Shown piece by piece: positions 1-31,318 of a stretch of DNA of 58,657 nucleotides. Position 1 is the stretch's first letter, and each line of letters opens with the position of its first letter. The stretch comes from a virus (taxonomy: Duplodnaviria; Caudoviricetes): positions 1-58,657 of IMG/VR virus record IMGVR_UViG_3300046796_000541; one strand, given 5' to 3'. A program made the translations under genes and the position numbers. The notes under the pieces are model-generated. The model was not told the origin of the DNA and did no database searches. It saw only the letters and a list, made by a program, of their open reading frames with translations.

Positions 1-127
1 ACGAGCTGTACTGGATCAACAGCGCCGGCAACAAGGTCCAGATCACCGCGGGCAACACGCTGAACTTCGCCGCGTTCGTCGGCGGGATCGGCGGCGACTA
101 CACGAGCGTCGGCGCGACCCTCAACTA
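1..127. repeat. Terminal overlap, copy 1 (circular contig)
   Basis: Identical to 58531-58657; falls inside a CDS; 127 is a common assembler k-mer size. Confidence 0.97.
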
Positions 128-884
128 TACCGACTCGCAGAAGGCGTACGAGTTCAAGGAGGGAACGATCGACTCGCACGGCTGGGCGCGGCTGCGCAGC
201 GGCGATCTGCGCCTGCTGCCGTTCAACACCACCGGCTCGGTGTTCGTCGGAATGGCGGCGCCCGGCGCGATCGCGGGCTCGTATACGGTGACCTGGCCGC
301 TCGCGTTGCCGGGCTCCACCGCGCTCCAGCAGATCGACAATACGGGCCAGGCGATCTTCAGCAACACGGTACCGAACGCGGTCACGTTCAGCAGTGCGGT
401 TATCGTGTCGGCCGGGGGGATCGCGGTCACCGGCAACTCGACGGTCACCGGCACCTTGAACGTGACCGGAACGCTGACCAACGGTGAAACCAGGACGTAT
501 TCGGTGGCGCTCGGAATTGCGGGAAGCGGCGCCACCGTCACCGTCGGGGGATCTCCGCCAGCGATCGGGATTGGTACCGCGACGACCGGCACCATGCTTC
601 CACTCGAGTTCAAGGTTGGCGTCACCATCACCGCATGGGAGGTACGGCTCATCAAGAACACCGACAATACGAAGACGCTGAGTGCGAAGCTGTGGAAGGG
701 GATTACCCCGACACAGGTCGGATCTACGCAGAGCAACTCCGCGAATGCCCCCGGATTTATCACGCTCGGTCAGAGCGGACTTACCGATGTGGTTGCGACC
801 CAGACCGCGTACTTCATCGAGGTCGTTGGTAGCGGCACCGCTGGCGACATCGTGACGCACTACTACCAAGCTACGACGGCGTGA
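1..884 (+). CDS. Tail fibre / receptor-binding protein, 3' part (gene starts at 58230 and crosses the junction; 394 aa in total)
   Basis: Frame is continuous across the overlap (...NELYWINSAGNKVQIT...); beta-rich, G/T-rich, with fibre-like VTGNSTVTGTLNVTGTLT; last gene of the head-tail operon. Confidence 0.7.
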   Translation, partial: ELYWINSAGNKVQITAGNTLNFAAFVGGIGGDYTSVGATLNYTDSQKAYEFKEGTIDSHGWARLRSGDLRLLPFNTTGSVFVGMAAPGAIAGSYTVTWPLALPGSTALQQIDNTGQAIFSNTVPNAVTFSSAVIVSAGGIAVTGNSTVTGTLNVTGTLTNGETRTYSVALGIAGSGATVTVGGSPPAIGIGTATTGTMLPLEFKVGVTITAWEVRLIKNTDNTKTLSAKLWKGITPTQVGSTQSNSANAPGFITLGQSGLTDVVATQTAYFIEVVGSGTAGDIVTHYYQATTA

Positions 885-885
885 G

Positions 886-1851
886 CTACTGCATTGTGTC
901 CTGGTAATCCATCACGTAGTCGCCGGCCGATCCCCCGCCCTGGACCTCGATGAAGTAGGAGGCATTCGGTGGGGTCGGATCGGTCAGGCCGGATGCTCCG
1001 ATGCTACCGGCGCCCTGGCCGATCAGCTGCTGTATAGAACCGATCTGAATCGCCGCGCCGGATCCTGTGGTCGCCCGCCACAAGCGAGCCGAGATGGTCC
1101 CCGTGGACGAGTTCTTGATGAATCTTACCGACCAGCCCACCAGCATCCGGCCGGCGGCGATGCGCATCGGCAGGTTGCTCGAGGCTGTGCTCGTGCCGAG
1201 CGCGAGCGACGGCGCGGTGAATGCCGAGCCCGGGAATAGCTGGACGCCGGGCCCCGGAATCGCGAACCCGATCGAATACGTCTCGACGGTCTGCGGCGTC
1301 GGCCCTGCCGCGATCGCAGCCCCCGCCCACGACACGTGGGTCGCCGGTGTCGGCCCGAAGATGCCCGGGGTCTGGGCCTTGAGCCGGATCTGCAGGTTCT
1401 CGCCAGCGACGACCACGTGCGGCGTCGCGAATGTGAGCGTCACGGTGGCGAGGTCGCCGGCGCCACTCGTGGTCGCATAGAGCAGCGCGTTGAACGTCGA
1501 ACCGTCCGACGACGGCGTCCCCACGAACACCACCACCGTGTTCCCGCCGGTCGAGAACCCGTTGTTCGGGCCGTTGTCGCGCACCGGGACGCTCACCGTG
1601 CCGATCACGTCACCGGCGGCGACAGGCAGCGGCACGATCCAGGTGGTGCAGCACCAGGACACCGAGCCGTCGGCGTTCAGCGTGCTGGTCACCCCGGTGT
1701 CGCCCCAGCCGGACGCCGGCGGGATCACGATGCCGCCGGACGAGAGCGACCCGGAGGAGGCGGCGACCGTAGCCGACTCTGCACCTCCAACGCACCCCAT
1801 TACCGCACATGAACTGACGAGCAGAATTCCTGATAACAGCGAAGATTTCAT
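886..1851 (-). CDS. Lipoprotein with two beta-rich domains; the C-terminal one is paralogous to the tail-fibre tip
   Basis: Signal peptide MKSSLLSGILLVSSCAVMG-C with lipobox-like Cys20; colinear motif matches to the C-terminus of the 884-ending protein. Confidence 0.8.
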   Translation of the reverse strand: MKSSLLSGILLVSSCAVMGCVGGAESATVAASSGSLSSGGIVIPPASGWGDTGVTSTLNADGSVSWCCTTWIVPLPVAAGDVIGTVSVPVRDNGPNNGFSTGGNTVVVFVGTPSSDGSTFNALLYATTSGAGDLATVTLTFATPHVVVAGENLQIRLKAQTPGIFGPTPATHVSWAGAAIAAGPTPQTVETYSIGFAIPGPGVQLFPGSAFTAPSLALGTSTASSNLPMRIAAGRMLVGWSVRFIKNSSTGTISARLWRATTGSGAAIQIGSIQQLIGQGAGSIGASGLTDPTPPNASYFIEVQGGGSAGDYVMDYQDTMQ

Positions 1852-2015
1852 GTTGGCACCCTTTCAGCGCCCGGAAGCATCGAGCGCGTCTGCAGCATAG
1901 GCGCCGCATCCGGCCTCAGAGCAATACCCATAAGTGCTTCTCCTCGGATAGGTCAGTTGCGCACATGCAACGTTTGCGCGTCTTCCTGATGTGCGAACGG
2001 TGTGTCTACGTGAGA

Positions 2016-2063
2016 TTGACATTATACAGCAGCGCAGAATGTGCGCCTGTCTGACACTCCGGA
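2016..2063. promoter_or_regulatory. Divergent promoter/operator region
   Basis: TTGACA (+, 2016-2021) overlaps a perfect TATAAT on the minus strand (2021-2026); CACTCCGGA motif at 2055-2063; locally AT-richer intergenic DNA. Confidence 0.5.
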
Positions 2064-2145
2064 CTGGTCGGCGCGGCGACGGGCCCGCTAGCGAAGGGGC
2101 GAAGCAACGGCGTCGTGCCGACCCTCCTTGAGGTACGCTGGTCCG

Positions 2146-2454
2146 ATGTCTACGCGCGACCTCAACGACACCGGACCTGTTCCGCCGATCGACTTCGACT
2201 TCGACCCGATGACGAGGACCTACCATCAGCCCGGCACCGGCCCGCGCTACGCCGTGCTGCCGTCGCCGGTGGCCGTCGCCGAGGTCATGCGCCGCGCCGC
2301 GCGCGAGGTGTTCGCGATCTCACCCGAGGCCCGGATGCTGGCCGCGGCGGGGCTGCGCAGCGACTTCGAGCGGCTGCTCGAGCAGATCGTCGACCGCGCC
2401 GGCCGCGAGGTGTCGGAGGTCCTGACGGCGGCGCTGACCGACCGCAAGGCGTAG
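2146..2454 (+). CDS. Hypothetical protein, probably leaderless
   Basis: TACGCT -10-like hexamer 6 nt before ATG 2146; typical codon usage. Confidence 0.65.
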   Translation: MSTRDLNDTGPVPPIDFDFDPMTRTYHQPGTGPRYAVLPSPVAVAEVMRRAAREVFAISPEARMLAAAGLRSDFERLLEQIVDRAGREVSEVLTAALTDRKA

Positions 2455-2470
2455 CCGGCACGTTGACGTC

Positions 2471-3160
2471 CTACCCTAGCGTGAGCACGCCCTGCCCGAG
2501 TCGGCGTGCGGCGATCTCGCAATACTTCTCCTCGCGCTCGATGCCCACGGCGCGGATGCCGAGGTCCTTGCAGGCGCGGAGCGTGGTGCCCGAGCCCATG
2601 AACGGGTCGAGCACAGACGTCGGCCGCTCGGGGCACAGGCCGATGGCCCACGACATGACGGCGAGCGGCTTCTGGGTCGGGTGGTAGCGGGGCTCATGGC
2701 CCTTGCGGATCATGCCGTTCCACAAATGCCGGCGAAGTCGAACCGCGCCGGTGTAGTTCGTCCAGGCCAGTTCGGCGTCGGCGAAATCCCCGGAGTTCTC
2801 TTTGTCCCAGACCAGCCAGCACGGAGAAGGAGGCAACGCGAAGTAGTTCCCGCCGAAGATGCACTGCCACATTGATAGCGAGCGGAGGTCGGTCAGTAGT
2901 CCATCGCTTGGCGGCGCATCGTCCCAGTCCGCGGTGCCATAGTCGCGAGGGCGCGGCGTGGACCCCTGTAGCCTCGCCGCCCTCGCCTCGGTGCAGACTC
3001 TAGACTTCCCCTTCCCTCTCGCCTCCCCGATCCCATACGGCGGGTCCGTGCACAGCAGATCGAACCGGCCGAGAGTCGGCGCGATCTCCGCGCAGTCGCC
3101 GTGGTAGATCGCGATCCCGTCGGCTTCGTAGTAGGGCGTCACGGGCTCCATCATCGTCAC
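2471..3160 (-). CDS. Orphan N6-adenine/N4-cytosine DNA methyltransferase (beta class)
   Basis: IYHGDC, DPPY catalytic motif, HPTQKP, LDPFMGSGTT SAM-binding motif in beta-class order. Confidence 0.95.
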   Translation of the reverse strand: MTMMEPVTPYYEADGIAIYHGDCAEIAPTLGRFDLLCTDPPYGIGEARGKGKSRVCTEARAARLQGSTPRPRDYGTADWDDAPPSDGLLTDLRSLSMWQCIFGGNYFALPPSPCWLVWDKENSGDFADAELAWTNYTGAVRLRRHLWNGMIRKGHEPRYHPTQKPLAVMSWAIGLCPERPTSVLDPFMGSGTTLRACKDLGIRAVGIEREEKYCEIAARRLGQGVLTLG

Positions 3161-3204
3161 GGGTGTGACACCCGGCGCGCGGTCGGACGTGGTACTACGC
3201 GCCC

Positions 3205-3573
3205 ATGTCCAACGACTACTTCAAGGAAATCGACCTCAACCCCGCCGTCGGGGGCCTCGTCAACAACCCGCTCGACCCCCGGGCGATGCACTACTTTGGG
3301 TTCCTGGCGGAGGGCCAGGATATCTCGATCGTGAACCCGATCACCCCGCAGCCCCGGATCGCGGTCTCCTGGCAGTTCGGGAATCAGCCCACCCCCGCGC
3401 CCGTCCCACCACAGCCGTCGATCGATGCGATCCTCGACTTCAACGGCACGGGCCCCGGTCTGCACTACGAGTTCCACCACGATCGGTCGCACGTGATCGT
3501 GTGGTGGGACCCGACCGTCGCGACGCCGACCGGACCGGCGGTCGTTCGGGTCCGCGCCTGGGCCACGAAGTAG
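3205..3573 (+). CDS. Hypothetical protein (possibly virion-associated)
   Basis: Clean 122-aa ORF with strong GC3 codon bias. Confidence 0.7.
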   Translation: MSNDYFKEIDLNPAVGGLVNNPLDPRAMHYFGFLAEGQDISIVNPITPQPRIAVSWQFGNQPTPAPVPPQPSIDAILDFNGTGPGLHYEFHHDRSHVIVWWDPTVATPTGPAVVRVRAWATK

Positions 3574-3600
3574 CCCGGTCCGACAGCGATCTGTATGCCG

Positions 3601-3708
3601 GCTTGCATTCCCGGCTGAACTGTGGTCGCATCGGTCAACCCACGGACCGGTACCGGCAGCCGTAGGTGAGCTTCCCCACCAGCCGCGGGGCCGCGCAACA
3701 GCGCCGCC
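3601..3708 (+). promoter_or_regulatory. Putative late promoter and structured 5' leader, copy 1
   Basis: TTGCAT-17-TCGCAT, hairpin 3638-3667, GAG-N5-CCACCAGCCG; homologous to 50192-50304. Confidence 0.7.
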
Positions 3709-6700
3709 ATGCCCGGGGAAGCCGTCCAAGCGTTCAGGTTCGCGCAGGGTGTCCAGACCAAGCAGGACCCCAAGAGCGTGGCCATGCCGGCGCTCCTCGT
3801 GCTCGAGAACGGCGTGTTCTCGCGCGCGACGTCGATCAGGAAGCGGAACGGGTGCGCTGACCTCGGCCAGCAGATCGAGGGCACCTCCGCCGACGTGACC
3901 GGCGCGATCCGCATGGCCAAGCGCGGCACCGAGCTGCTCGAGTTCACGCGCAACCGCTGCTACTCGCGCGAGAGCGGCGTCGCGCAGTGGTCCGACGCCG
4001 GGGCCGTGTTCAGCGCGGTGGGCGCGGACCGCCCGCTGCCGACCACCGGGACCGACCAGACCATGATCGACGCGGCATCGCTCGCCGGCGTCACGGTCTG
4101 CGCCTGGGAGGACTCGGCCGGCGGCGTCTGGTGGTCGGCCGTCGATACCGTGAGCCAGCGCGTCTACCGCGCCGCGACCCAGGCCGACGCGACCGGAATC
4201 TCGCCGCGTTGCGTGGCGGTCGGAGCCAACCTCCACGTGTACTGGGCGAACGCGGCGGGCGGGTCGATCAACGTCCTCGTGGTCAGCCCGCAGACCCCCG
4301 CGGCCGCGCCGGCGTCGATCCAGCTGACCCCTGACCTGGCGGTCGCTGACCCGGTCTACGACGTCGCGCCGACCACGCGCACCGACACCCCGTCGATCAT
4401 CGCGTGGGCCGAGCAGGGGACCACGAACATCAGGATCGGGTACATCGACCAGAGCGGCACCATCTCGTCGCCGCTGCTCGGTGACCCACCGTCGATCACC
4501 TTCGCTGCCGCGCGTACCGCGGCGACGCCGCTGGGGCTGGCCCACGCGTTCGTCGACGGCGCGAACGCCGACCGGATCGCGCTCGCATACGTCACCGGCG
4601 GCGGCCTGGGCACCGCCAAGGTCGAGTGGTTCGCGGCCGGGAACAGCGGTGCGAGCCCGTTGGCCACGCTCGCGAACTTCACCGCGTACGCGCCGACCGC
4701 GGCGTTCCTGCGGTGCGGCGTGACCGTGTTGCGCGACGCGACGGCGGGGACGATCACGGCGTGGACGATCTGGGAGGAGAGCGCGGCGGCTCCGACGAAC
4801 CACTATCTCCGCGTGGTCTCCGTCGAGGTCACCGCCGGCTCGAGCGGCGTCCTGGGGACGTTCAAGTCGGTCGGCCTCGTCGCCAAGCCGTTCTCGATCG
4901 GCTCCGACGTGTTCGCGACCACCGTGCACCCGACCACCTCATTCAACGTCTACGTCACCGTCCGGATCAACGGCAGCGGCACCGGCGTCTTCACCGACAA
5001 CGTGCCGGTGGGGCGCCACCTGCCCGGCTCGGCCGCCGGGCTGCCGGTCCGTACGCACGTCGCGTCGGCGTACGTGGTCGGGTCGATCGCGAGCATCGCC
5101 CTGCCGATGCGGCAGCGGTTGGTGAGCGAGAACAACGACAAGTTTCTGGAGACCGCGCCGCGGCTCATCACGATCGATTTCGACAACCCGCAGAGCCACC
5201 AAAGCGCCGAGTTCGGCAAGGGGCTGTACCTCGCCGGGGCCTGCCCGATGCACTACGACGGGCTCCAGTGGACCGAGCTCGGGTTCCACGTCGGTCCCGA
5301 GGTCATCGCTGCGGTCCCCGCCGGCGGCGGCTCGATGACCTCGAGCACAGTCTACGAGTACCGGGTCTGGTACGAGTGGACCGACGCGCAGGGCGAGGTG
5401 CATCTCGGGCCGACCTCGCCCGGGATCCTCGTGACGATGGGAGGCGGCGACACCCAGGTCACCCTGACGCTGCCGACCTGCCGGCTCACCCACAAGCTGG
5501 GCGTGCGCATCATGGTCGCGCGCTCGTTGCCCGGCTCGGACGGGAACGCCTCGCAGCTGTTCCGCGTGACATCGCTCGACACGACCGCGACGGGATCGGC
5601 CAACGGCTACGTCGCGAACTCGCTGGCGTCCGACACCGTGAATTTCCTGGACCGGATGAGCGACGTGACGCTCCAGACCTTCGACGAGCTGTACACCGAC
5701 GGCGGCATTCTCTCGAACGACCCGACGCCGCTCGGGCCCACGCTCACGCGGGGCAAGGATCGGTTGTTCGCGAGCGACCCGAGCGATCCGACCCTCGTGC
5801 GCTACTCGCAGCCGATCTCGGACGGGTTCGGCGTGCAGTGGCCGCCGGACCTCTTCCTCCGCATCGACCTCCAGGGCGGCAGCGTGCAGGGCCTCGCCGG
5901 CATCGACAACCGGATGATCATCTGGACCGAACGCCAGATCTGGACGTTCGCCGGCGACGGTCCGGACCAGACCGGGAACGCTGATGTGAGCGGGTTCTCG
6001 CGACCGCAGCTCGTCCCGAGCGGCGATATCGGCTGCACTGACCCGCAGTCGATCGTGTTCACGCCGCGCGGCTACTTGTTCATGAGCGCGCAGGGGATCT
6101 TCGAGCTCGGCGGCGACAGCAGCATCAACTACCGCGGCGCCCCCGTCGAGGCGTTCAACGGCCAGACGATCCGCCGCGCGATCCAGCTGCCGGACCGCAC
6201 CCAGATCCTGTTCCTCACCGACAGCGGATCGACGCTGCTCTACGACTACCTCTTCGACCAGTGGAGCACCTTCACGAACTACGAGGGCCTTGACTGCGCG
6301 GTCGTCGCCGGCCGGCTCTACTACCTGCGCACCGATGGGCGCATGTTCGCGGAGACCGTCGGGGTGTACTCGGACGCCGGCTCGCGGATCCGGCTGCGGC
6401 TCGAGACCGCGTGGATCAAGATGGTGGAGTACCTGCAGGGGTTCGAGAAGTTCAACCAGTTCCACCTGCTCGGCACATGGGAGTCGGCGCACCAGCTCGG
6501 TGTGCAGTACCAGACCGACTACACGCTGGGCTGGACCGACGCGGTGTGGTTCGACGCGACCGGCGTGAGCAGCGGCACCGGCTGGATCAGCGGATCGAAC
6601 GTCGTCGGCGTGGAGCCGATCAGCGGCTCGAACTACAACGACGGGCAGTACAGCATCGGGCAGTACGGCGGCACGGCGCCGGGCGAATACGCGTGGCGGC

Positions 6701-6858
6701 TCGACATGTGGGAGGTGGGGCAGGCGATTCAGTTCAGGTTCGAGGACTTCGAGGCCGCCGGATTCTTCGGCCCCTCCTTCGAGCTCACCGAGCTCGTCAT
6801 CACCGGGCAAGTGCTCGGCAACGTGCGCCGTCCGATGACGGCGGGAAGATCGGGATAA
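3709..6858 (+). CDS. Tail nozzle / tail tubular protein B-like (P22 gp10 / T7 gp12 analogue)
   Basis: 1049 aa, beta-rich; N-terminal LENGVF...IRKRNG and later GCTDPQSIV...FMSAQGI, LLYDYLFDQWSTF; directly upstream of ejection-protein genes. Confidence 0.75.
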   Translation: MPGEAVQAFRFAQGVQTKQDPKSVAMPALLVLENGVFSRATSIRKRNGCADLGQQIEGTSADVTGAIRMAKRGTELLEFTRNRCYSRESGVAQWSDAGAVFSAVGADRPLPTTGTDQTMIDAASLAGVTVCAWEDSAGGVWWSAVDTVSQRVYRAATQADATGISPRCVAVGANLHVYWANAAGGSINVLVVSPQTPAAAPASIQLTPDLAVADPVYDVAPTTRTDTPSIIAWAEQGTTNIRIGYIDQSGTISSPLLGDPPSITFAAARTAATPLGLAHAFVDGANADRIALAYVTGGGLGTAKVEWFAAGNSGASPLATLANFTAYAPTAAFLRCGVTVLRDATAGTITAWTIWEESAAAPTNHYLRVVSVEVTAGSSGVLGTFKSVGLVAKPFSIGSDVFATTVHPTTSFNVYVTVRINGSGTGVFTDNVPVGRHLPGSAAGLPVRTHVASAYVVGSIASIALPMRQRLVSENNDKFLETAPRLITIDFDNPQSHQSAEFGKGLYLAGACPMHYDGLQWTELGFHVGPEVIAAVPAGGGSMTSSTVYEYRVWYEWTDAQGEVHLGPTSPGILVTMGGGDTQVTLTLPTCRLTHKLGVRIMVARSLPGSDGNASQLFRVTSLDTTATGSANGYVANSLASDTVNFLDRMSDVTLQTFDELYTDGGILSNDPTPLGPTLTRGKDRLFASDPSDPTLVRYSQPISDGFGVQWPPDLFLRIDLQGGSVQGLAGIDNRMIIWTERQIWTFAGDGPDQTGNADVSGFSRPQLVPSGDIGCTDPQSIVFTPRGYLFMSAQGIFELGGDSSINYRGAPVEAFNGQTIRRAIQLPDRTQILFLTDSGSTLLYDYLFDQWSTFTNYEGLDCAVVAGRLYYLRTDGRMFAETVGVYSDAGSRIRLRLETAWIKMVEYLQGFEKFNQFHLLGTWESAHQLGVQYQTDYTLGWTDAVWFDATGVSSGTGWISGSNVVGVEPISGSNYNDGQYSIGQYGGTAPGEYAWRLDMWEVGQAIQFRFEDFEAAGFFGPSFELTELVITGQVLGNVRRPMTAGRSG

Positions 6859-6860
6859 CC

Positions 6861-7793
6861 ATGGTTGACTGGGGCGCAGGCGGCAAGGGCGCCGCATCCG
6901 GTGCGGCACTTGGAACGGCGATCCTTCCCGGCTGGGGGACCGCGATCGGCGGCGCCGTCGGCGGGCTATACGGCCTATTCGGCGGCGGCGGAGACGATCC
7001 CGCCCCGCCACCGCCACCGAACCCGTACGCCACCGCGATGCTTGGCAACATCGCCGGCGGCGCCCAGGGCCGCAGCGCGGCGTCGATGTACGGCTCGCAG
7101 TTCACCGTGGACCCCACGGGCCGGCAGGGCATCCTCGACACCACCGGCCGGCTCGGGCGGATCGCCGCGGGGACCCAGCAGGGCGCCGGCGAGATGGCGG
7201 TCAACGCGCAGGTCGGGCGCGCGAACGCCGCGCAGATGGCCGCCGCGCGCGCGAGCCACGGGGCGAACGCAGCCCTGGCGTTCCGCAACTCGATGCGCAA
7301 CCAGGCCGACATCGGGCTCGCCGGCGCGGGCCAAGCCGGCGCGATGCGGCTGCAGGACCAGGCTGCGGCGAATCAGCAGCTCGGTGGCCTGTTCACGAAC
7401 CTCTACGGCCAGGACGCCGGCATCGCCGCGCAGAACGCTCAGCTCTCACAGGCCGCGCAGCAAGCGAACCTGCAGGCGCAGATGCAGCAGCGTCAGATGA
7501 ACGACGCCTACCAGATCCAGGCGCTCGGGCAGATGCAAGGCTGGTCGCAGCAGCAGATTGACGCCTACCGCGCGCAGCTCCAGCAGCAGCAGATCGACCT
7601 GCAGAAGCCCAACGTGGCGGGAAACCTCCTGCAGGGCGCGGGGACATACATGCAGCTCAAGGGGATGGGGGCCTTCGGTGGCAACGCCGGCGCGAGCGGC
7701 GGCGTTCAACTTCCCAACCCCGGCGGGCTCTCGCAGATGTATCCCCACGGTGACCAGACCGGCGGTAGCGGCCCGGTCACGATGCCGAGCTGA
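6861..7793 (+). CDS. Internal virion / ejection protein (small)
   Basis: ATG 6861; glycine-zipper N-terminus GAASGAALGTAILPGWGTAIGGAVGGLYGLFG followed by A/Q-rich helices. Confidence 0.75.
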   Translation: MVDWGAGGKGAASGAALGTAILPGWGTAIGGAVGGLYGLFGGGGDDPAPPPPPNPYATAMLGNIAGGAQGRSAASMYGSQFTVDPTGRQGILDTTGRLGRIAAGTQQGAGEMAVNAQVGRANAAQMAAARASHGANAALAFRNSMRNQADIGLAGAGQAGAMRLQDQAAANQQLGGLFTNLYGQDAGIAAQNAQLSQAAQQANLQAQMQQRQMNDAYQIQALGQMQGWSQQQIDAYRAQLQQQQIDLQKPNVAGNLLQGAGTYMQLKGMGAFGGNAGASGGVQLPNPGGLSQMYPHGDQTGGSGPVTMPS

Positions 7794-7795
7794 CC

Positions 7796-10141
7796 ATGCC
7801 CCTCTACGACGGCAACATGGTCCAGATGCTCACGCCCGACGGGCGCGCGATCACGATGCCGAGCGGGCTCGCGCAGACCTTCCCCGGGCTGCAGCCCTTC
7901 CCGGCGGCGCCCCCGATGCCCGCCGGTGGCCCGCCGGATCAAGCCGGCAGCCTGCCCCCAGCCGCGCCGCAGATCGCGCCACAGGGCCCCCAGGAGGGCC
8001 CCATCACGGACCCCTCGCAGCTCCCGCCGGGGACCGGGGCCCCTTCGGCGCCACAGGGCCCTGTGACGACCCCCGCGGAGGACACCGGGGTGCCGCGCCG
8101 GCCAGCGCCGGAGCCCTCGCCCACGAAGGCCCAGCTGGTCAAGGAGGGCCCCGCGGGGACCCTCGCCGCGCAGAACGCCGCGATCGACAAGCAGCAGACC
8201 GCGATCGACCGTTCCGCGCAGGTCGAGGCCGACGCCGCCACGCAAGAGGGCCACGCGATGGCCCAGCGCGACGCGCAGACCCAGCAGATCCTGATCGAAA
8301 AGGCGAACCAGGCCAAGGCGAACGAGGCCGAGCTCAACGCGCGGATCCAGGCGCGCGACCAGCTCGCCGATCAGATCGCCAAGACGCGGATCGACCGCAG
8401 CGTGGACCATCCGATCTGGGCGCAGATCGGGCTCGTGCTGTCGATGATCGGCACCGCCATGACCCGGCGGCCAGGCGAGGCGTACAGCGACCCGGCGTTC
8501 AACACGCTGCAGCAGCTGCTTGACAAGAAGGTCGCCGGGCAGATGCAGGACCTCGATCAGAAGCGACTGGGGCTCGCCCAGATGAACATCGGCGTGACCG
8601 AGCAGCGACAGCACAACGTCGACCGGCTCACCGAGATCGACGCGCGCAAGGACGCCGCGATCCAGCAGGCCCAGCAGGCGGTGCAGACGATCGCGATGCA
8701 GATGAAGTCCCCGGCGGCGCTCGCGAACGCGCAGCAGCTCAATGCGAAGCTGGACGAGGAGCGGGCGAATCTCCGGGGCCAGGCCGGGCAGCGGTACCAA
8801 GACCAGATGAACGCCGAGGCGACGCGTGCGCAGAGCCTGCAGATGCACCGCGAGTCGCTCGGGATGCAGTACCGCATCCACAGCGAGACGCTGCAGGCGA
8901 CCGAGCGCGAGAAGATGGCCGAGGTCGCGCAGCGTGCGCTCGCCGCTGGCGACAAGGCCACCTCCGAGAAAGCCAAGGCGGTGCAGGAGCGGGCCGTCGG
9001 CGACCCGCGGACCGGCAACGTGCTCCTCGGCCCGGCCGGACAGGCGAAGATGGACCAGGCCGACAAGATCGAGGCGCAGGCGCGCCAGCAGCAGGACCCC
9101 GATGCCGCACAGAAGATGCGCGACTACGCCGGCGCGCTCCGACAGAGCGCCATGCTGAACGACGCCGCGCTCGCACCGACCGCCGAGGCTCAGAAGGAGC
9201 TGACCAAGCAGGTGCGTTCCGCGCAGGACATCACAGACCAGATCGGCGACGTGATCGACAAGCTCCAGGCGGGCCCAGGCGTGCTGAACCGCGAGGCATG
9301 GTCAACGATCACGACCGATCTCGGCATCATCGCCGGCAAGTATCAACAGGCGATGGGCGAGCGCGTCTCGACGAAGGCGTTCGAGCAGACGATGCAGCAC
9401 ATCATCAACTTCGATCCCACCAGCCTGTTCAACCGGGCGGCGAGCAAAGACAAGGCGATCGCGTCACTCCAAACGCTCAAGAATGTGGTGGCCAGCGACG
9501 TCGATACCTCCCTGAAGGCCAACCGCATGCAGACCGCATGGCATCCGCAGACCAAGACCGAGCGGGGGGCCGCGCTCAACATCGACGAGAAGACAGCCGC
9601 GGAGACTGCCGACGATCGGAGCCTGGGTTACCTCAATCTGGGGCGCTACACCGGCGGGCAGGAGCAGGCCAAGGAGGAAGCCTTCAACGAGGCGCAGGCG
9701 CGCCCCGGTGCCGAGGCCGGGCTCTCGCCGAACGCCGCGACCCACATCAAGGCGCTCGCCGCGCGCGCCACCACCGCGGGCGATGCCGAGCACGACCGGA
9801 TCGTGCAGTCGCTCGCGGGTCCGATCAGCGACGGGCTCCGAGAGGGGTCGCGCAACTCGGTGTCGACCGGCATGCTCGAGGTGCTGCGGAACTCCGCGCC
9901 CGCCATCTATGACGACGTCGTGAAGGCGCTGCCTGCCAGCGATCAGAAGGAGATCCGCGCGCGCGATGCGCTGGTCCGCAAGGCGACCCCGGTGCCGAAT
10001 ACGCCGAGCGGGTTCGACCCGGACGCCGCGGCTGCGGCGCAGGCGGAGCGCGATCGGGCTGCTGCCGGCGCATCGGCGCGGTCCGAGCGCGTGCGGGCGG
10101 AGCAGCGCGACAAGTTCGGCGATCTGGGGACCTCGAGGTAG
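7796..10141 (+). CDS. Internal virion / ejection protein (coiled-coil)
   Basis: 781 aa, A/Q-rich helical, one hydrophobic segment; position between other ejection proteins. Confidence 0.7.
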   Translation: MPLYDGNMVQMLTPDGRAITMPSGLAQTFPGLQPFPAAPPMPAGGPPDQAGSLPPAAPQIAPQGPQEGPITDPSQLPPGTGAPSAPQGPVTTPAEDTGVPRRPAPEPSPTKAQLVKEGPAGTLAAQNAAIDKQQTAIDRSAQVEADAATQEGHAMAQRDAQTQQILIEKANQAKANEAELNARIQARDQLADQIAKTRIDRSVDHPIWAQIGLVLSMIGTAMTRRPGEAYSDPAFNTLQQLLDKKVAGQMQDLDQKRLGLAQMNIGVTEQRQHNVDRLTEIDARKDAAIQQAQQAVQTIAMQMKSPAALANAQQLNAKLDEERANLRGQAGQRYQDQMNAEATRAQSLQMHRESLGMQYRIHSETLQATEREKMAEVAQRALAAGDKATSEKAKAVQERAVGDPRTGNVLLGPAGQAKMDQADKIEAQARQQQDPDAAQKMRDYAGALRQSAMLNDAALAPTAEAQKELTKQVRSAQDITDQIGDVIDKLQAGPGVLNREAWSTITTDLGIIAGKYQQAMGERVSTKAFEQTMQHIINFDPTSLFNRAASKDKAIASLQTLKNVVASDVDTSLKANRMQTAWHPQTKTERGAALNIDEKTAAETADDRSLGYLNLGRYTGGQEQAKEEAFNEAQARPGAEAGLSPNAATHIKALAARATTAGDAEHDRIVQSLAGPISDGLREGSRNSVSTGMLEVLRNSAPAIYDDVVKALPASDQKEIRARDALVRKATPVPNTPSGFDPDAAAAAQAERDRAAAGASARSERVRAEQRDKFGDLGTSR

Positions 10142-13100
10142 ATGCCGGCGTTCCGCGGCCCAGATGGGAAGGTGGTCTACGTCCCCGAGGACGAGGCCGA
10201 TCGGTACCGCGCGGGCGGCGACTACCAGGAGGTCGGCCGGGCGGAGGCCGGCGCCGCGCAGAACCGGATCGCGCCCACCGACAACGGCGTCCTGGGGTCG
10301 ATCGGCGCGACGGTCAGCGCTGGGCTGTCGGGGGCGACGCTGGGCGCCTCGGATTGGCTGCTCAAGGGGGTCCTGAACAAGGGGCAGTTCGAGCAGCTCG
10401 CGCAGGACCGCGCGGACAACCCGATCCTGGCTGGGACCGCGCAGGCCGCCGGCATGGTGATCCCTGCGCTGGTCAGCGGCGGCACGGCGACGCCGGCGGG
10501 GGCGCTCGGGCGGCTGGCCGGCGAGGGCATCGAGGCAGGCAGGGCGACCGGCGGCGCGCTGGGCGTCGCACAGCAGCTCGGCGCCGCCGGGGCCGAGGGG
10601 GCGATCGCAAACGCCGGGATCTACATGTCGGACGTGGCGCTGGGCGATCGGAACCTCACCGCCGAGGGCATCAACGGGGCGCTCGGGACTGGGCTGCTGT
10701 TCGGCGCGGCAGGAATCCCGGTCGCGCACGGCATCGAGGCCGGTACGATCGCCGCGCGGCGCATGTTCGCGCGGTACGCCGAGGGTGGCACGCAGGCGGC
10801 GGAAGCTGCGACCGCGGCGTGGACCGAGCAGGCGCAGAAGCATCTGGAGGGCTTCGACCAGGCCGCCGAGCTCGCGAAGGCGAAGCTGGCGGAGACCCAG
10901 ACCGCGCGCGAGGCGGCGAACCTGCAGCGGCTCCGCGCCGGCTCCGAGATGGCGGACGCGCGCGCGTTCACCCCGCCGAGCGAGTTCCCGGGCGGCCCGG
11001 CCGCGCCGGCGTCGCCGGCAGGCGCCGCCACGGAGGCCGCTGGGCCCGCCGCCGCCGCGGCCCCTGAACCACCCGAGGTCGCCATGGCGCGTGCGCTGCG
11101 CGACCGCGCCAAGGGGCTGGGCGGGGAGCCGATCACGCCCGGCGAGCTGCCGCCCGGAGCACCCGGGTTCCGGAGGGACTTCGTCATCCCCGGCGAGCGC
11201 CCGCCGGCGGCGCCCAACGCGCTCGAGCAGCTGGCGCAACAGCCCGGCGTGACCACGCAGGGGCCCGCGACGCTCGCGCGCACGCGCGGGCTGGTTGGGC
11301 CGCCGGTGACCGCGGACGAGGCCGAGCTCGGCGCCCGGCTCGGCGAGTACCAGGCGGCCCGGCGCTCGTTCGACGAGCTGCACGCGCAGGTCGACCCCGA
11401 CCTCGACGCGATCCTCCGCGGCGTCCAGCCGGGCGACGTCCAGCGGATGCCGGTGCCGATCGGCGAGTTCGGCGCCCCCGGCGCGGGCGGGTTCAAGAGC
11501 CAAGGCGAGCTCGCGCGGCTCGCCTCCGGGACCGGGCGCGAAGAGGGCGCGCAGGCGGCGTCGCTCGCGTCGGCGGACGCGACTGGTACTGGCGGCCCGC
11601 GCGCGCTCCGATCCCAGGGCACGCCCCCGGCGCGGTCCCTGGGCGAGGTCGCGTCCGAACAGGCTCCGGTGCCGATCGAGCAGCCTTCGACCGCGGTGGG
11701 GAAGCGACCGGCGGGCGCCATGGAGACCCCCACCGGATTCGATATCCACGGCTCAACGGAGGCCGGTCCGGTATTCGACAAGAACCCGACCGTGCGGAGC
11801 GGCGTCCCCGGGTTCGCCGACTTGGAGCGCGAGACCTACCGCAAGAATGCCTACGTCTTGCGGCCGAGCGAGCTCGATGGTCCCAAGCTGCGCGGCATCA
11901 CGAGCGGCGAGGACATGGTCGCCGACGCGCGCACGGCCAAGGTCCGCGAGGCATGGGGCAAGGGCGAGAGCACCCCGGCGCTGGAGATCGACGTCGACCC
12001 CAAGGGCAACTACTTCGTCGCCGACGGGAATCACCGCCTGCTCGCAGCCGCCGCGGACGGCGATCGCCCGGTTCTGGCCAGGTTTCGACCCGTGGAGGCC
12101 GAGGTCGGGAACATGGACCGGATCGGCGACGACCTCCGGCGCGCGCTCGGGCGTGGTGAGGAATCGACATCGTCGATAGAGACCGCTCATCCGGGGATCG
12201 CGAAGGAGTATTCACCGGACACGGGAACGCGCCTCAATTCCGAGGGAGCGCTTGGATTCAATGGAGATGCCCCGTTGGTAGAATGGGCGCATAAATCTGG
12301 CTTCGCCCCGGAGGGAGCCGGTCCCGTCCATACCACGCCGACTGGGTTCTCGTACAAACCGACCATTACGGATCCGGATAGTGCCCTTAGCAAATACATC
12401 CAGCATCCGAGTGAATTCAATATCGATGCTCGCGCGGGGAGATTGACCGACGACATCAAGCGGCTTGATGCGGAGATCGGTGCGCGTCGCATGCCCGAAA
12501 CGATTACGACGTTCCGCGGTGTGCGATCGGGACCACTGACCGCCGCATCGGAGGGAGAAGTTGTTAATGAGGCAGGGTTCATGTCCTCGAGCCCGACTGA
12601 GCGCCGAGCCAAGAACTTCGCGACAGGGGCCGCGAAGCCTGGGGAAACGACACCGACAATCGTTGAATTCGATATCCCCAAGGGCACCCAAGCCCACTGG
12701 GTGAGCGATTTCGAGGGCGAGATCCTCCTGGGACGCGGTCACAAATTGGAGATCGTCAGTGTAGGATTCAAGGAAATCCGCGGCAAGAACGTCCGCATGG
12801 TCAGGGCGCGGCTCATAGAGCCGTCATCTACCATCCCGGCCACTGACACGCTCACCGGCCAGCTCCGCGGCATGGAGTCGAAGCTCGGAGCCGGCGAGGA
12901 CCTCGTGGCGATGGGCGAGCCCGCACGTGATGCGTATCGCGCCGCGAAGGCCGAGCGGACTTCCGAGGCGGCGGCGCACTTCCGGGGAAAGGCGATCGCG
13001 GCCCGCGAGGCGCGCGCCGGCGCGGTGGCCGCGGGCGAGACCCCCAACCCGTTCCACGAGCCGGCCGCGGGCGGCGCCGGGTCCGAGATGGACCAGTTCT

Positions 13101-14992: not shown

Positions 14993-14995
14993 CCC

Positions 14996-15493
14996 ATGCA
15001 TGGATCTCGACGCTACCTCGTTCCGATCGATACCGCCGACGGCACCTCGCCCGCGGAGGCCGGAGGCCACGGCATCTACACGCTCACCGCGAGCCACACC
15101 TACGTCTACCTGGACCCGACGCTCGACACGCCGTTCACGAGCTTCGACCTGACCGGGTATGACGCCGGGCTTGTGATCACCTCGGCGACGATCCAGGACA
15201 CGAACCACCCAGGATCGGTGACCGCCGGCGGGCCGAACGGTGGCGACGTCCCAGACACGAGCGTGACCGTCGGCGAGTGGAAGAACGAGCGGCCGACCAA
15301 CGGCTACGTGGCGGCGGATGGCGCCGGCTGGAGCGTCGGCAGCGGCGCGACCGCGTGCGTCGTCGCAGCCAGCGGCGCCGGCGTCGGCGGCGCGCTCTGG
15401 CACGTCGCGGAGACCGGCGCGGCGCGGACCCGGCTCAACGTCGTGGTCGGCGGCACCGGCGGCAAGGTCCGCGTATCGGCGGCGGGGAAGTAG
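14996..15493 (+). CDS. Hypothetical beta-rich virion protein
   Basis: SD-like GAGGTGA, tight operon coupling, G/T/V-rich. Confidence 0.65.
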   Translation: MHGSRRYLVPIDTADGTSPAEAGGHGIYTLTASHTYVYLDPTLDTPFTSFDLTGYDAGLVITSATIQDTNHPGSVTAGGPNGGDVPDTSVTVGEWKNERPTNGYVAADGAGWSVGSGATACVVAASGAGVGGALWHVAETGAARTRLNVVVGGTGGKVRVSAAGK

Positions 15494-17053
15494 ATGGGGA
15501 TCGGGCTCCGCATCGGGGCGCGCATGACCTCGACCATCGGCGTGGGCATCGGCGGCGTCGGCAGCTCTCCGGCGACGCTGGTCGCGGGATTCGGCGACAG
15601 CAACAACGAGGGCTTCGTCGCCTCGTTCGGATCGAGCGGCGCTAACGGGCTGGACCCGGCGCTCAACGCCAACACGCCGTACATCACCCGGTACAACTGG
15701 CACGGCGCGGCCGGCGTCGCCGACCCGCCGGTGTTCTTGCCGGCGTTCCCCGGGCCGGGCGATCTGGACATCGGGGGCGTCAGCGCCCGGTTCTCGACCG
15801 ACGGCAAGATGGGTAACGACATGGGCATCGCTCGCGCGCTCGAGACGGCGATCGCCGTGCCGGCCGTGAGCTCTGAAGGCCTGGTCGCGGCGACCCTCGC
15901 TGTGCACTGGTTGCCGTCTACCCCATACCCGTCCAGCGGGCCGAACCTATTCAACTTGTGGGTCACGCGGCAGCACACGCTCGAGGGCATTCTGGGACGT
16001 CGACTCGGCGGCGCGTACGTGGATCTGCTGCCAAACGACACGCTGTCCGCGCCTCAGTCCGCAGCGGCGGGCACCAACCTCACTGCGCTGTTTGCCGCGA
16101 TCCGCGCGGTGTGGCCAGGATTGCCCATCTGCCTTCCGAAGCTCTCCATCAGCAACCTCAACGCGGCCAACCGCGACACAATCCGCGCGCTGGAGGTCAC
16201 GTTCGCGGCGAGCGATCCGCTGTGCGCGTTCGTCGACGTCGACGACCTGCCGCTGATCGATGGCCTCCACTTCCCGCCGAACGGGTACCAGACGCGCGGC
16301 GAGCGCATCGGGTTCGCGTTGCTCCCGCTGATGGGCTACGCGCCAAGGGTGGCAGTCACAACGCCGGCGATGCTCGGATGGGGACCGGGCGCCTGGGCAT
16401 CGACGTCGTTGTCATTCGCGAACCTCAATACCATCAACTCCTACGGAGACGAACGTAACGGCGACCTGCAGATCATGGTGATTGAGACCGGTGTCCTGAG
16501 CGGGTCCGCCATCGGCACGCCGGCCGGCTGGACCGCGGTCGGGACGCTGCAGACCACGGGGAGCGCCGGGATCTTCTGCAACGTGCAGCTGTTCTCGAGG
16601 GCGGTCACGACGGCGATCCTCAACGCTAACGGTGGACACATGCCGGCGACGAGCTACACCGCAGCCGACGACCGCAACGTCGCGAAAATCATCACGGTGC
16701 GAGGGCCGAGCGCGAATCCGACGATCGATGTGGCCACCCCGTTTCTGGCGAACGCTGTCGGCGCCTCGATGAGCGTTCCCGGGATTACCACCGGGTTTGC
16801 CAACGAGCTCGTGATCGTCATCGCGGGCGGCTGGGCCGGCTCCTCGTCGAGGACCCAGGCGATCACGAATGGGACCCTCACGGGATTCGTCCAGCAGCAG
16901 GATGGCGCGTACCCGATGCCGACCACGGACGCCTTCGTCCTGTCGTTCGCGTCGGGCGCCAAGGCCGCCGCCGGCGCCACGGGCACGACCACGGTTACGG
17001 TGACGGGCGGGACGACCATTGGATGGGCCTACACGATCGGAATCAAGCCATGA
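15494..17053 (+). CDS. SGNH-family (sialate/carbohydrate O-acetylesterase-like) domain plus C-terminal beta domain; probable tail spike
   Basis: GFGDSNNEG block I and DGLHF DxxH motif; C-terminal T/G-rich domain. Confidence 0.7.
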   Translation: MGIGLRIGARMTSTIGVGIGGVGSSPATLVAGFGDSNNEGFVASFGSSGANGLDPALNANTPYITRYNWHGAAGVADPPVFLPAFPGPGDLDIGGVSARFSTDGKMGNDMGIARALETAIAVPAVSSEGLVAATLAVHWLPSTPYPSSGPNLFNLWVTRQHTLEGILGRRLGGAYVDLLPNDTLSAPQSAAAGTNLTALFAAIRAVWPGLPICLPKLSISNLNAANRDTIRALEVTFAASDPLCAFVDVDDLPLIDGLHFPPNGYQTRGERIGFALLPLMGYAPRVAVTTPAMLGWGPGAWASTSLSFANLNTINSYGDERNGDLQIMVIETGVLSGSAIGTPAGWTAVGTLQTTGSAGIFCNVQLFSRAVTTAILNANGGHMPATSYTAADDRNVAKIITVRGPSANPTIDVATPFLANAVGASMSVPGITTGFANELVIVIAGGWAGSSSRTQAITNGTLTGFVQQQDGAYPMPTTDAFVLSFASGAKAAAGATGTTTVTVTGGTTIGWAYTIGIKP

Positions 17054-17693: not shown

Positions 17694-17705
17694 AAGGACC
17701 GAATC

Positions 17706-19045: not shown

Positions 19046-19065
19046 CGCGTCGCCCGCGAGAACGA

Positions 19066-22165: not shown

Positions 22166-22168
22166 ACC

Positions 22169-31306: not shown

Positions 31307-31318
31307 GTCCATCTCTAC

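What the first reader, a model, noticed from the sequence alone, without database searches (positions are those of the whole stretch)
495..1851. Lipoprotein carrying a copy of the phage's own tail-fibre tip, encoded tail-to-tail with the fibre gene
Seen: the fibre gene ends at 884 and a lipoprotein gene on the other strand ends at 886. Their last ~130 aa align colinearly: TYSVALGIAGSG/TYSIGFAIPGPG, PAIGIGTATT/PSLALGTSTA, WEVRLIKN/WSVRFIKN, TLSAKLWK/TISARLWR, QVGSTQ/QIGSIQ, SGLTD/SGLTD, YFIEVVGSGTAGD/YFIEVQGGGSAGD. DNA traces of an inverted duplication centred near 885 remain (TACTTCATCGAGGTC at 810-824 vs 943-957; TCATCAAGAAC at 649-659 vs 1111-1121). Known: receptor-blocking lipoproteins such as T5 Llp and Cor sit near receptor-binding genes but are not homologs of them. 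Inference: a membrane-anchored copy of the receptor-binding domain could mask the receptor (superinfection exclusion or protection of progeny at lysis). Alternatively the fibre tip was captured from a host surface lipoprotein, or the pair swaps tips by recombination. I do not know a described case.
Basis: partly seen in the sequence, partly recalled or inferred. Interest (0 to 1): 0.85.

Follow-up and report, generated by a model that had tools for sequence, protein, structure and literature searches.

The report
Phage lipoprotein built from fibre-tip domains
A soil phage encodes, tail-to-tail with its tail-fibre gene, a lipoprotein made of two sugar-binding-like domains related to the fibre's own tip, and this pairing recurs in other phages, which suggests an untested way for a phage to mask or mimic its own receptor binding.

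Summary
The fibre gene stops at 884 and a convergent lipoprotein gene stops at 886. Their last ~130 aa are 38% identical (E 7e-22). The DNA "traces" come from protein conservation plus codon bias, so the duplication is old.

- **Fold:** the fibre tip is a CBM-like beta-sandwich (Z 11.7). The lipoprotein is a tandem of two such domains, and both are homologous to fibre tips.
- **Family:** it belongs to an unannotated family in which about 30 clusters show a lipobox. All come from metagenomes.
- **Position:** 23 of 75 related loci carry some lipoprotein gene convergent on the fibre stop, against 29 of 5188 background ORFs.
- **Other lineages:** two-domain members lie tail-to-tail with a fibre gene in a baseplate-bearing phage (L087), and with an unidentified gene in L090.
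- **Co-variation:** the C-domain matches the neighbour clearly in only 2 of 8 directly seen loci (window; L090, 45% with a different domain type). A tree needs at least 3 exchanges between fibres and lipoproteins.
- **Excluded:** no invertase, reverse transcriptase or integrase.

My best reading, at 0.4, is an envelope-anchored receptor-directed protein that works like T5 Llp or Cor but derives from the receptor-binding domain. The function is untested and the host is unknown.

The parts
58230..58657 (+). 5' part of the tail-fibre-like gene (N-terminal, virion-proximal region). It continues at window base 128 because bases 1-127 repeat 58531-58657.
   Evidence: ORF listing. 127-nt terminal repeat and 394-aa joined product. 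The N-terminal 130 aa are conserved in 59 other proteins.
3..884 (+). 3' part of the fibre gene (shaft and tip), stop codon at 882-884.
   Evidence: 62 relatives. The gene sits inside the structural module, after the portal, capsid and a Gly-rich tail-fibre-like gene.
480..881 (+). Fibre tip domain (residues about 261-394), a CBM-like beta-sandwich.
   Evidence: Confident part of model m13ca78e33354. VIA Z 11.7 to a porphyran-binding CBM (8xmz_B, rmsd 3.1, 121 aligned), and CBM15 Z 11.3.
886..1851 (-). Lipoprotein gene (321 aa), convergent on the fibre gene, stop codon at 886-888.
   Evidence: GC3 0.85. Model m098af0d15b68, mean pLDDT 84.4.
1792..1851 (-). Signal peptide with lipobox. The lipidated cysteine is most likely C20 (codon 1792-1794); C15 is the alternative.
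   Evidence: C20 is invariant in 19 aligned family members. L004 and L066 homologues share the signal. pLDDT is below 50 for residues 1-25.
1306..1746 (-). Lipoprotein N-terminal beta-sandwich domain (residues about 36-182), a distant homologue of fibre tips.
   Evidence: hhalign against tip clusters B and C gives 96% probability, and 73% against A. VIA Z 11.3 to 8hhv_A and Z 10.0 to CBM86.
889..1290 (-). Lipoprotein C-terminal beta-sandwich domain (residues about 188-321), the same subtype as the phage's own fibre tip.
   Evidence: 38% identity, E 7e-22. VIA Z 11.8 to CBM16 and Z 11.5 to 8xmz_B. It falls in the same 13-row subclade as the own fibre tip, SH-aLRT 88.
1852..2127 (.). Divergent intergenic region upstream of the lipoprotein gene. 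It presumably holds the gene's own promoter.
   Evidence: Inference from gene layout. The sigma-70 consensus scan found no site.

Best explanation
Gene 886-1851(-) encodes an exported, lipid-anchored protein. It consists of two tandem CBM-like beta-sandwich domains, and both derive from the domain family that forms the tail-fibre tip.

Proposed mechanism. The gene is transcribed on its own from the divergent region 1852-2127. The protein is exported and lipidated at Cys20, and it sits in the host envelope during infection. Its tip-like domains bind the same class of surface ligand that fibre tips bind. This makes the infected cell and its debris poor targets for adsorption, which excludes later phages and spares progeny. 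That is the job done by T5 Llp and by Cor, here done with a module taken from the receptor-binding protein itself.

Shown: homology, fold, lipobox, conserved tail-to-tail position, and repeated domain exchange with fibres.

Inferred: export and lipidation, location, ligand binding, and any effect on adsorption.
For: 1. Homology and fold. BLASTP gives 38% identity over 130 aa, E 7e-22. The fibre tip, the lipoprotein N-domain and the lipoprotein C-domain all hit the same CBM chains at Z 10-12. The whole lipoprotein matches tandem CBM22 (E 1.8e-9) and the Bacteroides surface glycan-binding lipoprotein SGBP-B (E 4e-7).

2. The slot. 23 of 75 related loci (16 of 61 fibre groups at 90% identity) have a lipobox ORF convergent on the fibre stop, against 29 of 5188 other ORFs under the same test. 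These lipoproteins belong to several unrelated families.

3. The two-domain family. 78 representatives have E <= 0.001, and 30 of the 70 new ones were flagged with a lipobox by script. Members lie convergent on the fibre gene in L004, L010, L020 (two genes), L022 and L066.

4. Searching from the lipoprotein side. L087 shows the same tail-to-tail pair in a baseplate-bearing phage. L090 shows a pair whose C-terminal 148 aa are 45% identical (E 3e-33), using a different domain type. Among everything I hold, that type occurs elsewhere only in P0005.

5. Modularity. The C-domains are shuffled on two N-domain types. On a tree the 17 lipoprotein C-domains need 8 label changes, at least 3 of them forced by strongly supported branches.

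6. No integrase was found, which fits a lytic-conversion role like that of virulent T5.

7. Literature. Llp is adjacent and downstream of pb5 (PMC9586334, passages read). Cor and Llp disable receptors so that offspring do not adsorb to debris, and the RBP locus of small siphoviruses also encodes exclusion factors (PMC11990801, passages read).
Against: - There is no functional, expression or localisation data, and the host is unknown. The sample is soil, and only three MAG contigs carry fibre relatives.
- The lipoprotein C-domain does not track the neighbour's tip in most pairs. It is clear in 2 of 8 directly observed loci and weak in L022 (E 0.002). It is absent in L004, L010, L020 (two genes), L066 and L087.
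- At the level of coarse tip clusters the match is no better than the base rate of cluster A would give.
- The short lipoproteins in the same slot do not correlate with tip cluster either.
- If the ligand is an abundant surface glycan, stoichiometric masking is hard. PMC11990801 makes this point for O-antigen.
- In diderm hosts most lipoproteins face the periplasm, where a fibre-type ligand may be out of reach.
- There is no sequence relation to Llp, Cor or any annotated family.
Confidence: 0.4

Rival explanations
1. Tip reservoir. The main role of the tail-to-tail arrangement is to hold a second tip-type module next to the fibre tip, so that recombination between the inverted homologous segments, or with other phages, swaps host-range modules. 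The lipoprotein function would be secondary.
For: - The two homologous segments are inverted and adjacent.
- Lipoprotein C-domains are polyphyletic among fibre tips: at least 3 and up to 8 exchanges.
- The same C-domain type sits on two different N-domain types.
- In the best-holding run the stretch 129-2002, which is the fibre shaft and tip plus the lipoprotein, assembles as its own contig at depth 7.7. The flanks are at 10.8 and 9.68, and other contigs diverge at its borders.
- P0008 has the same last 286 aa on a different N-terminus.
Against: - No serine invertase, reverse transcriptase or tyrosine recombinase is present in the complete genome.
- Nucleotide identity is only 54% with saturated synonymous sites, so homologous recombination between these two copies is unlikely now.
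- Contigs from three runs cross the 884/886 junction in the same orientation, and no inversion joint is seen in any of the four runs laid. Contigs cannot show rare forms, so this is inconclusive.
- The lipoprotein keeps a conserved signal peptide and N-domain under its own constraint.
Confidence: 0.15
2. Envelope lectin with another role. The lipoprotein binds a host glycan or matrix polymer for a purpose other than blocking adsorption. Examples would be holding infected cells in a biofilm or next to susceptible neighbours, or altering polysaccharide export.
For: - It has a tandem CBM-like fold and resembles a surface glycan-binding lipoprotein.
- The C-domain type often differs from the neighbour's tip, which is hard to reconcile with strict self-receptor masking.
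Against: - The strong positional tie to fibre genes in three lineages, and the matched rare domain type in L090, point to a link with adsorption.
- No glycan-processing genes are adjacent. The neighbours are a hypothetical gene and a DNA methylase.
Confidence: 0.2
3. Unlinked accessory gene. The slot after the fibre gene is simply a hot spot for independently transcribed morons, and the tip-like domains reflect promiscuous shuffling of a common beta-sandwich module with no functional tie to the fibre.
For: - The slot holds many unrelated lipoproteins. In the window it also holds a hypothetical gene and a methylase.
- There is no consistent co-variation.
- The same tip module sits on several other fibre scaffolds.
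Against: - The enrichment is for lipoproteins in particular: 23 of 75 loci against 0.56% of background ORFs.
- The family is again tail-to-tail with a fibre when it is searched for from the lipoprotein side.
Confidence: 0.15
4. Host origin. The fibre tip was captured from a bacterial surface lipoprotein, or the lipoprotein is a host gene carried along.
For: - In L090 the pair lies next to a PAS-domain gene at the end of a 69%-complete record, which may be a prophage border.
- CBM-like lipoproteins exist in bacteria.
Against: - The look-ups covered 30 family members. All are one- or two-member clusters from metagenome assemblies without names. 26 of the 30 have a longest contig of 1.3-25 kb, and the other four reach 40-104 kb. 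The relatives come only from metagenome assemblies, on contigs of 2-52 kb.
- The family was not searched for directly in the species genomes.
Confidence: 0.05

Closest known systems
T5 Llp and the Cor proteins of T1, phi80 and N15 (receptor-blocking superinfection-exclusion lipoproteins)
   Same: All are phage-encoded lipoproteins whose gene lies next to the receptor-binding gene. Llp is 'adjacent and downstream to pb5' (PMC9586334, passages). Virulent phages use them to stop adsorption to the infected cell and its debris (PMC11990801, passages).
   Different: Llp and Cor are small, are not homologous to the receptor-binding protein, and inactivate the protein receptor FhuA. This protein is 321 aa and is built from two receptor-binding-tip homologues. 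It matches no annotated PHROG, Pfam or NCBIfam family, and its target is unknown.
Invertible tail-fibre segments (Mu G / P1 C with Gin/Cin); features recalled, not read here
   Same: Two alternative fibre C-terminal modules are encoded in opposite orientation next to each other.
   Different: No invertase gene is present and there are no exact crossover repeats. The second module is part of a complete gene with its own start, signal peptide and N-domain. No inverted form appears in the contigs of the four runs laid.
Tandem carbohydrate-binding modules and Bacteroides SGBP-B surface glycan-binding lipoprotein
   Same: A lipid anchor followed by tandem beta-sandwich modules. Foldseek gives E 1.8e-9 to CBM22-1-CBM22-2 (4xup) and 4e-7 to SGBP-B (7kwb). 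Single-domain Z is 10-12 to CBM16, 15, 22, 36 and 86.
   Different: There is no sequence membership in any CBM family. The gene is phage-encoded and is not in a polysaccharide utilisation locus. Sugar binding has not been shown.
Receptor interference by retroviral Env expressed in the infected cell (recalled analogy)
   Same: The concept is shared: the virus's own receptor-binding module, membrane-anchored in the infected cell, occupies the receptor.
   Different: The biology is entirely different and there is no homology. For this phage the mechanism is only a hypothesis.

Membership tests
Llp/Cor-type receptor-blocking lipoproteins | Phage-encoded protein with a lipoprotein signal peptide (lipobox cysteine) | tested here: met
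   The signal peptide has lipobox-like cysteines at C15 and C20. C20 is invariant in 19 aligned members. The signal is shared with L004 and L066. This is sequence evidence only, and no SignalP tool was available.
Llp/Cor-type receptor-blocking lipoproteins | Gene adjacent to the receptor-binding protein gene | tested here: met
   The stop codons are 1 nt apart. The arrangement recurs in L004, L010, L020, L022, L066 and L087, and in L090 beside an unidentified gene.
Llp/Cor-type receptor-blocking lipoproteins | Sequence homology to Llp or Cor | tested here: not met
   No PHROG, Pfam or NCBIfam family matches at E <= 0.01. No tblastn hit in 50,697 GenBank phage records.
Llp/Cor-type receptor-blocking lipoproteins | Blocks adsorption by inactivating the receptor | not testable with these tools
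   This needs expression in a host and adsorption or plating assays. The host is unknown.
CBM-like beta-sandwich (jelly-roll) carbohydrate-binding modules | Fold | tested here: met
   Fibre tip: Z 11.7 (8xmz_B, rmsd 3.1, 121 aligned) and Z 11.3 (1gny). Lipoprotein C-domain: Z 11.8 (2zew). N-domain: Z 11.3 (8hhv).
CBM-like beta-sandwich (jelly-roll) carbohydrate-binding modules | Sequence membership in a curated CBM family | tested here: not met
   No Pfam family matched. The profile of A3 found no PDB sequence at E <= 1.
CBM-like beta-sandwich (jelly-roll) carbohydrate-binding modules | Binds a carbohydrate | not testable with these tools
   This needs glycan binding assays.
Invertible fibre segment (Gin/Cin type) | Site-specific serine invertase encoded at the locus | tested here: not met
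   PF00239 is absent from the complete 58.6-kb genome, while the control search rings in 12 of 14 control genomes.
Invertible fibre segment (Gin/Cin type) | Both orientations present in the population | tested here: inconclusive
   Contigs of three runs cross the junction colinearly, and none of the four runs laid shows an inversion joint. Only contigs were available, and they drop rare forms.
Diversity-generating retroelement target | Reverse transcriptase and template repeat | tested here: not met
   PF00078 is absent. The two copies differ at all base types, with 54% identity.
Spanin (outer-membrane lipoprotein lysis component) | Small lipoprotein paired with an inner-membrane partner in a lysis cassette | tested here: not met
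   The protein is 321 aa with two beta-sandwich domains, and its neighbours are not lysis genes. Only the unrelated short lipoprotein of L011 gave a weak Rz-like hit (E 0.001).
Phage tail fibre (for the 58230..884 gene) | Structural-module position, conserved N-terminus and exchangeable C-terminal tip | tested here: met
   The gene follows the portal, capsid and a Gly-rich fibre-like gene. The N-terminal part is conserved in 59 relatives, while the tips fall into several clusters. BFVD matches are fibrous phage proteins at low TM. Presence in virions is not testable here.

The most novel reading that the evidence does not exclude
Phages have repeatedly turned their own receptor-binding tip into a membrane-anchored lipoprotein encoded back-to-back with the fibre gene. 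This would be a phage counterpart of retroviral Env receptor interference. The anchored tip copy occupies the receptor on the infected cell and its debris, and the fibre tip plus lipoprotein domain travel and are renewed together as one host-range cassette.
Probability: 0.3. Interest if true: 0.85.

Novelty: new variant of a known kind. Interest (0 to 1): 0.66.

Why it matters
Known receptor-blocking phage lipoproteins (Llp, Cor) are unrelated to the proteins that bind the receptor. Here a whole family of phage lipoproteins derives from the receptor-binding domain, and it keeps a fixed tail-to-tail position with fibre genes in three lineages; two of these have different virion architectures, and the third (L090) is uncharacterised.

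If these proteins mask receptors, two things follow. First, this would show a simple evolutionary route to superinfection exclusion and progeny protection. Second, the specificity of an exclusion factor could be predicted from a fibre tip, and the reverse.

If they serve instead as exchange partners for fibre tips, they are a new source of host-range variation. Either way the pair marks host-recognition loci in uncultured soil phages. The family gives a clean test case: express one gene and measure adsorption.

Tried and rejected
**Searches that found nothing**
- GenBank phages: no tblastn hit for the lipoprotein or the capsid.
- Pfam, PHROGs, NCBIfam: nothing for the fibre, the lipoprotein, or ten short lipoproteins from the same slot.
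- PDB by sequence: nothing meaningful.
- ESM Atlas: only unnamed viral clusters scoring below 0.9, which are leads only.
- Promoter and terminator consensus scan of 600-3400: no sites.
- Viral contigs searched with the single lipoprotein: no relative.
- Literature: four searches found no paper on fibre-tip-like lipoproteins. PMC13292811 was not held, so for that work I saw only a preprint's search listing. Supplements were closed. S2 Fig of PMC11990801, on RBP loci with exclusion factors, may bear on the comparison.

**Sequencing runs**
- No RNA holder is listed.
- Contigs of four runs were laid. No inversion joint appears, and the only joint (159 to 1629, side 21, one run) looks spurious. Contigs cannot show rare forms.

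**Methods that failed or proved weak**
- Pattern searches with alignments A1 and A4 were not possible because no conserved stretch exists. I used a single protein and the smaller alignment A5 instead.
- Matching contig lengths is a weak way to pair proteins. P0101 and L024 share the length 12954, yet L024 does not encode P0101. The pairs P0079/P0026 and P0082/P0036 are therefore only presumed.
- My second lipobox script was faulty. One search replaces it.
- The careful tree search did not finish, so the quick tree is reported.

**Ideas considered and rejected**
- Tail-fibre chaperone: an exported lipoprotein cannot act in the cytoplasm.
- Spanin and DGR target: see the membership tests.

Full report
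**What the window is**

The window is a complete IMG/VR virus record of 58,657 nt and 70% G+C, with a 127-nt direct terminal repeat. It encodes:
- a large terminase that contains an intein;
- a P22-like portal;
- a podovirus-type major capsid protein (weak match);
- a Gly-rich tail-fibre-like protein;
- several very large virion proteins.

It has no relative among 50,697 GenBank phage records for the capsid or the lipoprotein. It carries no tyrosine integrase, serine recombinase or reverse transcriptase. Runs that hold the stretch are labelled soil and rhizosphere metagenomes.

**The observation**

The fibre-like ORF starts at 58230, crosses the repeat and stops at 882-884 (394 aa). A 321-aa ORF on the other strand runs from 1851 to 886, so the stop codons are 1 nt apart.

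BLASTP aligns fibre residues 265-388 with lipoprotein residues 190-316 at 38% identity (50 of 130), E 7e-22. The colinear inverted DNA matches are reported by the repeat finder.

These DNA matches are what protein conservation plus strong codon bias produce:
- nucleotide identity over 120 aligned codons is 54%;
- at identical residues the same codon occurs 25 of 48 times, against 26.2 expected from codon usage.

The duplication is therefore old.

**The lipoprotein**

Starting at ATG 1851 the product begins with a basic residue, a hydrophobic stretch and two lipobox-like cysteines. C20 is invariant across 19 aligned relatives. The same signal peptide is seen in the homologues of L004 and L066. 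The database gene call begins at M18 and would lose the signal.

**Fold**

An AlphaFold2 model of the lipoprotein has mean pLDDT 84.4 (35-row alignment). It shows a disordered signal and linker followed by two beta-sandwich domains, residues 36-182 and 188-320. The fibre model (P0008, identical over the last 286 aa) has a confident tip at residues 253-386.

| Domain | Best structural matches |
|---|---|
| Fibre tip | Z 11.7 to a porphyran-binding CBM (8xmz_B, rmsd 3.1, 121 aligned); Z 11.3 to CBM15; Z 10-11 to CBM22, 36 and 35 |
| Lipoprotein C-domain | Z 11.8 to CBM16; Z 11.5 to 8xmz_B |
| Lipoprotein N-domain | Z 11.3 to 8hhv_A; Z 10.0 to CBM86 |
| Whole lipoprotein (Foldseek) | Tandem CBM22-1-CBM22-2 (E 1.8e-9); Bacteroides surface glycan-binding lipoprotein SGBP-B (E 4e-7) |

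Profile-profile comparison shows the following:
- the three main fibre-tip clusters are homologous to each other (96-98.5% probability);
- the lipoprotein N-domain is homologous to clusters B and C (96%) and less surely to A (73%; 84.7% with the smaller profile).

The lipoprotein is therefore a tandem of two fibre-tip-family domains. A shared fold does not show sugar binding.

**Families**

The fibre has 62 relatives in the 5.8-billion protein set. The first 130 aa are conserved in 59 of them. The window's tip type is found in 32 other fibres.

The lipoprotein has only 6 relatives by the word-indexed search, but 78 representatives at E <= 0.001 in the exhaustive search. Of the 70 new proteins, 30 were flagged by a lipobox script, and several more visibly carry one.

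Most of these are 300-350 aa and share the N-domain, with differing C-domains. Two short ones (P0080, P0105) are a lipobox plus a single tip-like domain. The tip module also occurs on fibres with other N-terminal scaffolds.

All 30 lipoproteins I looked up are unnamed one- or two-member clusters from metagenome assemblies. Their longest contigs range from 1.3 to 104 kb, and most are short.

**Position**

A scan of IMG/VR with the fibre alignment gave 80 loci, 75 of them with a complete fibre ORF. In 23 of the 75 (16 of 61 fibre groups at 90% identity), an ORF on the opposite strand ends within -60 to +150 nt of the fibre stop and starts with a lipoprotein signal. The same test passes 29 of 5188 other ORFs in these loci. 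One of the 23 (L024) looks doubtful. The script misses L010, L020, L022 and L066, which HMM searches identify as two-domain family members.

The lipoproteins in this slot belong to several unrelated, unannotated families.

Searching from the lipoprotein side gave two informative loci.
- **L087.** The family member P0088 is convergent, with a 16-nt gap, on a 386-aa gene. That gene follows baseplate-wedge and baseplate genes, so the virion architecture is different. Its C-terminus matches the tip profiles (E 3e-17).
- **L090.** A 338-aa member and a convergent 392-aa gene overlap by 14 nt at their 3' ends. They share 45% identity over the last 148 aa (E 3e-33). Among all proteins and loci I hold, this domain type occurs elsewhere only in P0005. 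I could not show that the 392-aa protein is a fibre. Its other neighbour is a PAS-domain gene, so this may be a prophage border.

**Co-variation**

Pairs seen on the same DNA:

| Locus | Similarity of lipoprotein C-domain to the neighbour's tip |
|---|---|
| Window | Yes; own fibre ranks 6th of 63 hits, 79.7 bits against 88.2 for the best |
| L090 | Yes, 45% identity |
| L022 | Weak, E 0.002; rank 45 |
| L004, L010, L020 (two genes), L066, L087 | None |

Pairs inferred only from equal contig length:

| Pair | Similarity |
|---|---|
| P0002/P0009 | Yes, rank 9 |
| P0075/P0024 | Yes, rank 1, 49% identity |
| P0079/P0026 | No |
| P0082/P0036 | Weak |

Equal contig length can be a coincidence, as P0101 and L024 show.

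At the level of coarse clusters, the many A-with-A pairs are no more than the abundance of cluster A would give.

A quick maximum-likelihood tree covered 107 cluster-A-type domains over 139 columns, with SH-aLRT support only.
- The 17 lipoprotein C-domains need 8 label changes, at least 3 of them forced by strongly supported branches. The shuffled mean is 16.1.
- The window's C-domain clade (with P0002, P0004 and P0080) sits in the same 13-row subclade (support 88) as the window's own fibre tip.
- P0075 groups with its presumed partner P0024.
- P0127 and P0105 each group with other fibres (supports 97 and 95).

Domains have therefore moved between fibres and lipoproteins several times. The same C-domain type also sits on two different N-domain types.

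**Population data**

In the best-holding run, bases 129-2002 form one contig with no differences, at depth 7.7 against 10.8 and 9.68 for the flanking contigs. That stretch is the fibre shaft and tip plus the lipoprotein. Other contigs diverge at its borders. Contigs of two further runs bridge the 884/886 junction, and no inversion joint is seen.

This hints that the stretch varies as a unit. Contigs cannot show rare forms, and depth figures from contigs are rough.

**Interpretation**

What is shown: a phage lipoprotein family made from fibre-tip domains, a conserved tail-to-tail position with fibre genes, and repeated domain exchange.

What is inferred: its function. I favour, at 0.4, an envelope-anchored protein that binds fibre-type ligands and reduces adsorption to the infected cell and its debris.
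- This is the role of Llp and Cor, whose genes also sit beside the receptor-binding gene (PMC9586334 and PMC11990801, passages read).
- The absence of an integrase fits lytic conversion, as in virulent T5.

Against this reading:
- the domains are unmatched in most pairs;
- masking an abundant glycan is difficult;
- the topology of lipoproteins in diderm hosts is uncertain;
- there are no functional data at all.

The rivals are a tip reservoir for host-range exchange (0.15), an envelope lectin with another role (0.2), an unlinked accessory gene (0.15), and host origin (0.05).

**Novelty**

Four full-text searches found no description of fibre-tip-like phage lipoproteins. I rate this as a new variant of a known kind: a receptor-gene-adjacent phage lipoprotein that here derives from the receptor-binding domain. 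It would be more than that if the cassette model holds.

Noticed in passing
window 44432-47326 (+): The large terminase subunit (964 aa) carries Hint/intein-splicing matches at about residues 571-892, so it appears to contain an intein.
   Followed up: no
window 57360-58220 (+): The Gly-rich 286-aa protein directly upstream of the fibre gene matches PHROGs annotated as tail fibre assembly and tail fiber protein (E 5e-10 and 3e-6). It may be a second fibre component.
   Followed up: no
window 129-2002: In the best-holding run this stretch is a separate contig at lower depth (7.7 against 10.8 and 9.68). Other contigs diverge near 94-234, 1558-1592 and 2250. This suggests strain-level variation of the fibre plus lipoprotein module.
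   Followed up: partly
P0008 compared with window 58230..884: A fibre from another contig has the identical last 286 aa but only about 79% identity in the first ~100 aa. This points to a recombination joint inside the conserved N-terminal region.
   Followed up: partly
L020:11026-11988(-) and L020:12050-12760(-): Two two-domain lipoprotein genes lie in tandem after one fibre gene. Their C-domains are of different types: cluster A and cluster B.
   Followed up: partly
L061:9345-9719(+), L071:1740-2132(+), L047:9597-9923(+): In these low-GC relatives a neighbouring same-strand gene carries a second copy of the fibre tip (59%, 45% and 28% identity). These are paralogous fibres, not lipoproteins.
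   Followed up: no
L005/L006, L008, L012, L014, L039, L054-L058, L062 (convergent ORF after the fibre): A family of lipoproteins of about 110-140 aa sits in the same slot. They share a D-W/A-x-Q-T motif and hydrophobic segments, and match no Pfam or PHROG family.
   Followed up: partly
window 20779-21537 (-) and 39898-41001 (+): One protein has a C-terminal zf-HC2 anti-sigma-type zinc finger, and another belongs to the cpYpsA SLOG family.
   Followed up: no
window 1-2000: G+C is 0.651 here, the lowest 2-kb bin of the genome. The GC3 of the fibre (0.80) and the lipoprotein (0.85) is below the 0.89-0.96 of neighbouring structural genes.
   Followed up: no
L090:7210-7686(+): A PAS-domain gene lies next to the lipoprotein/392-aa pair, at the end of an 88-kb, 69%-complete 'viral' record. 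This may be host DNA at a prophage border.
   Followed up: no
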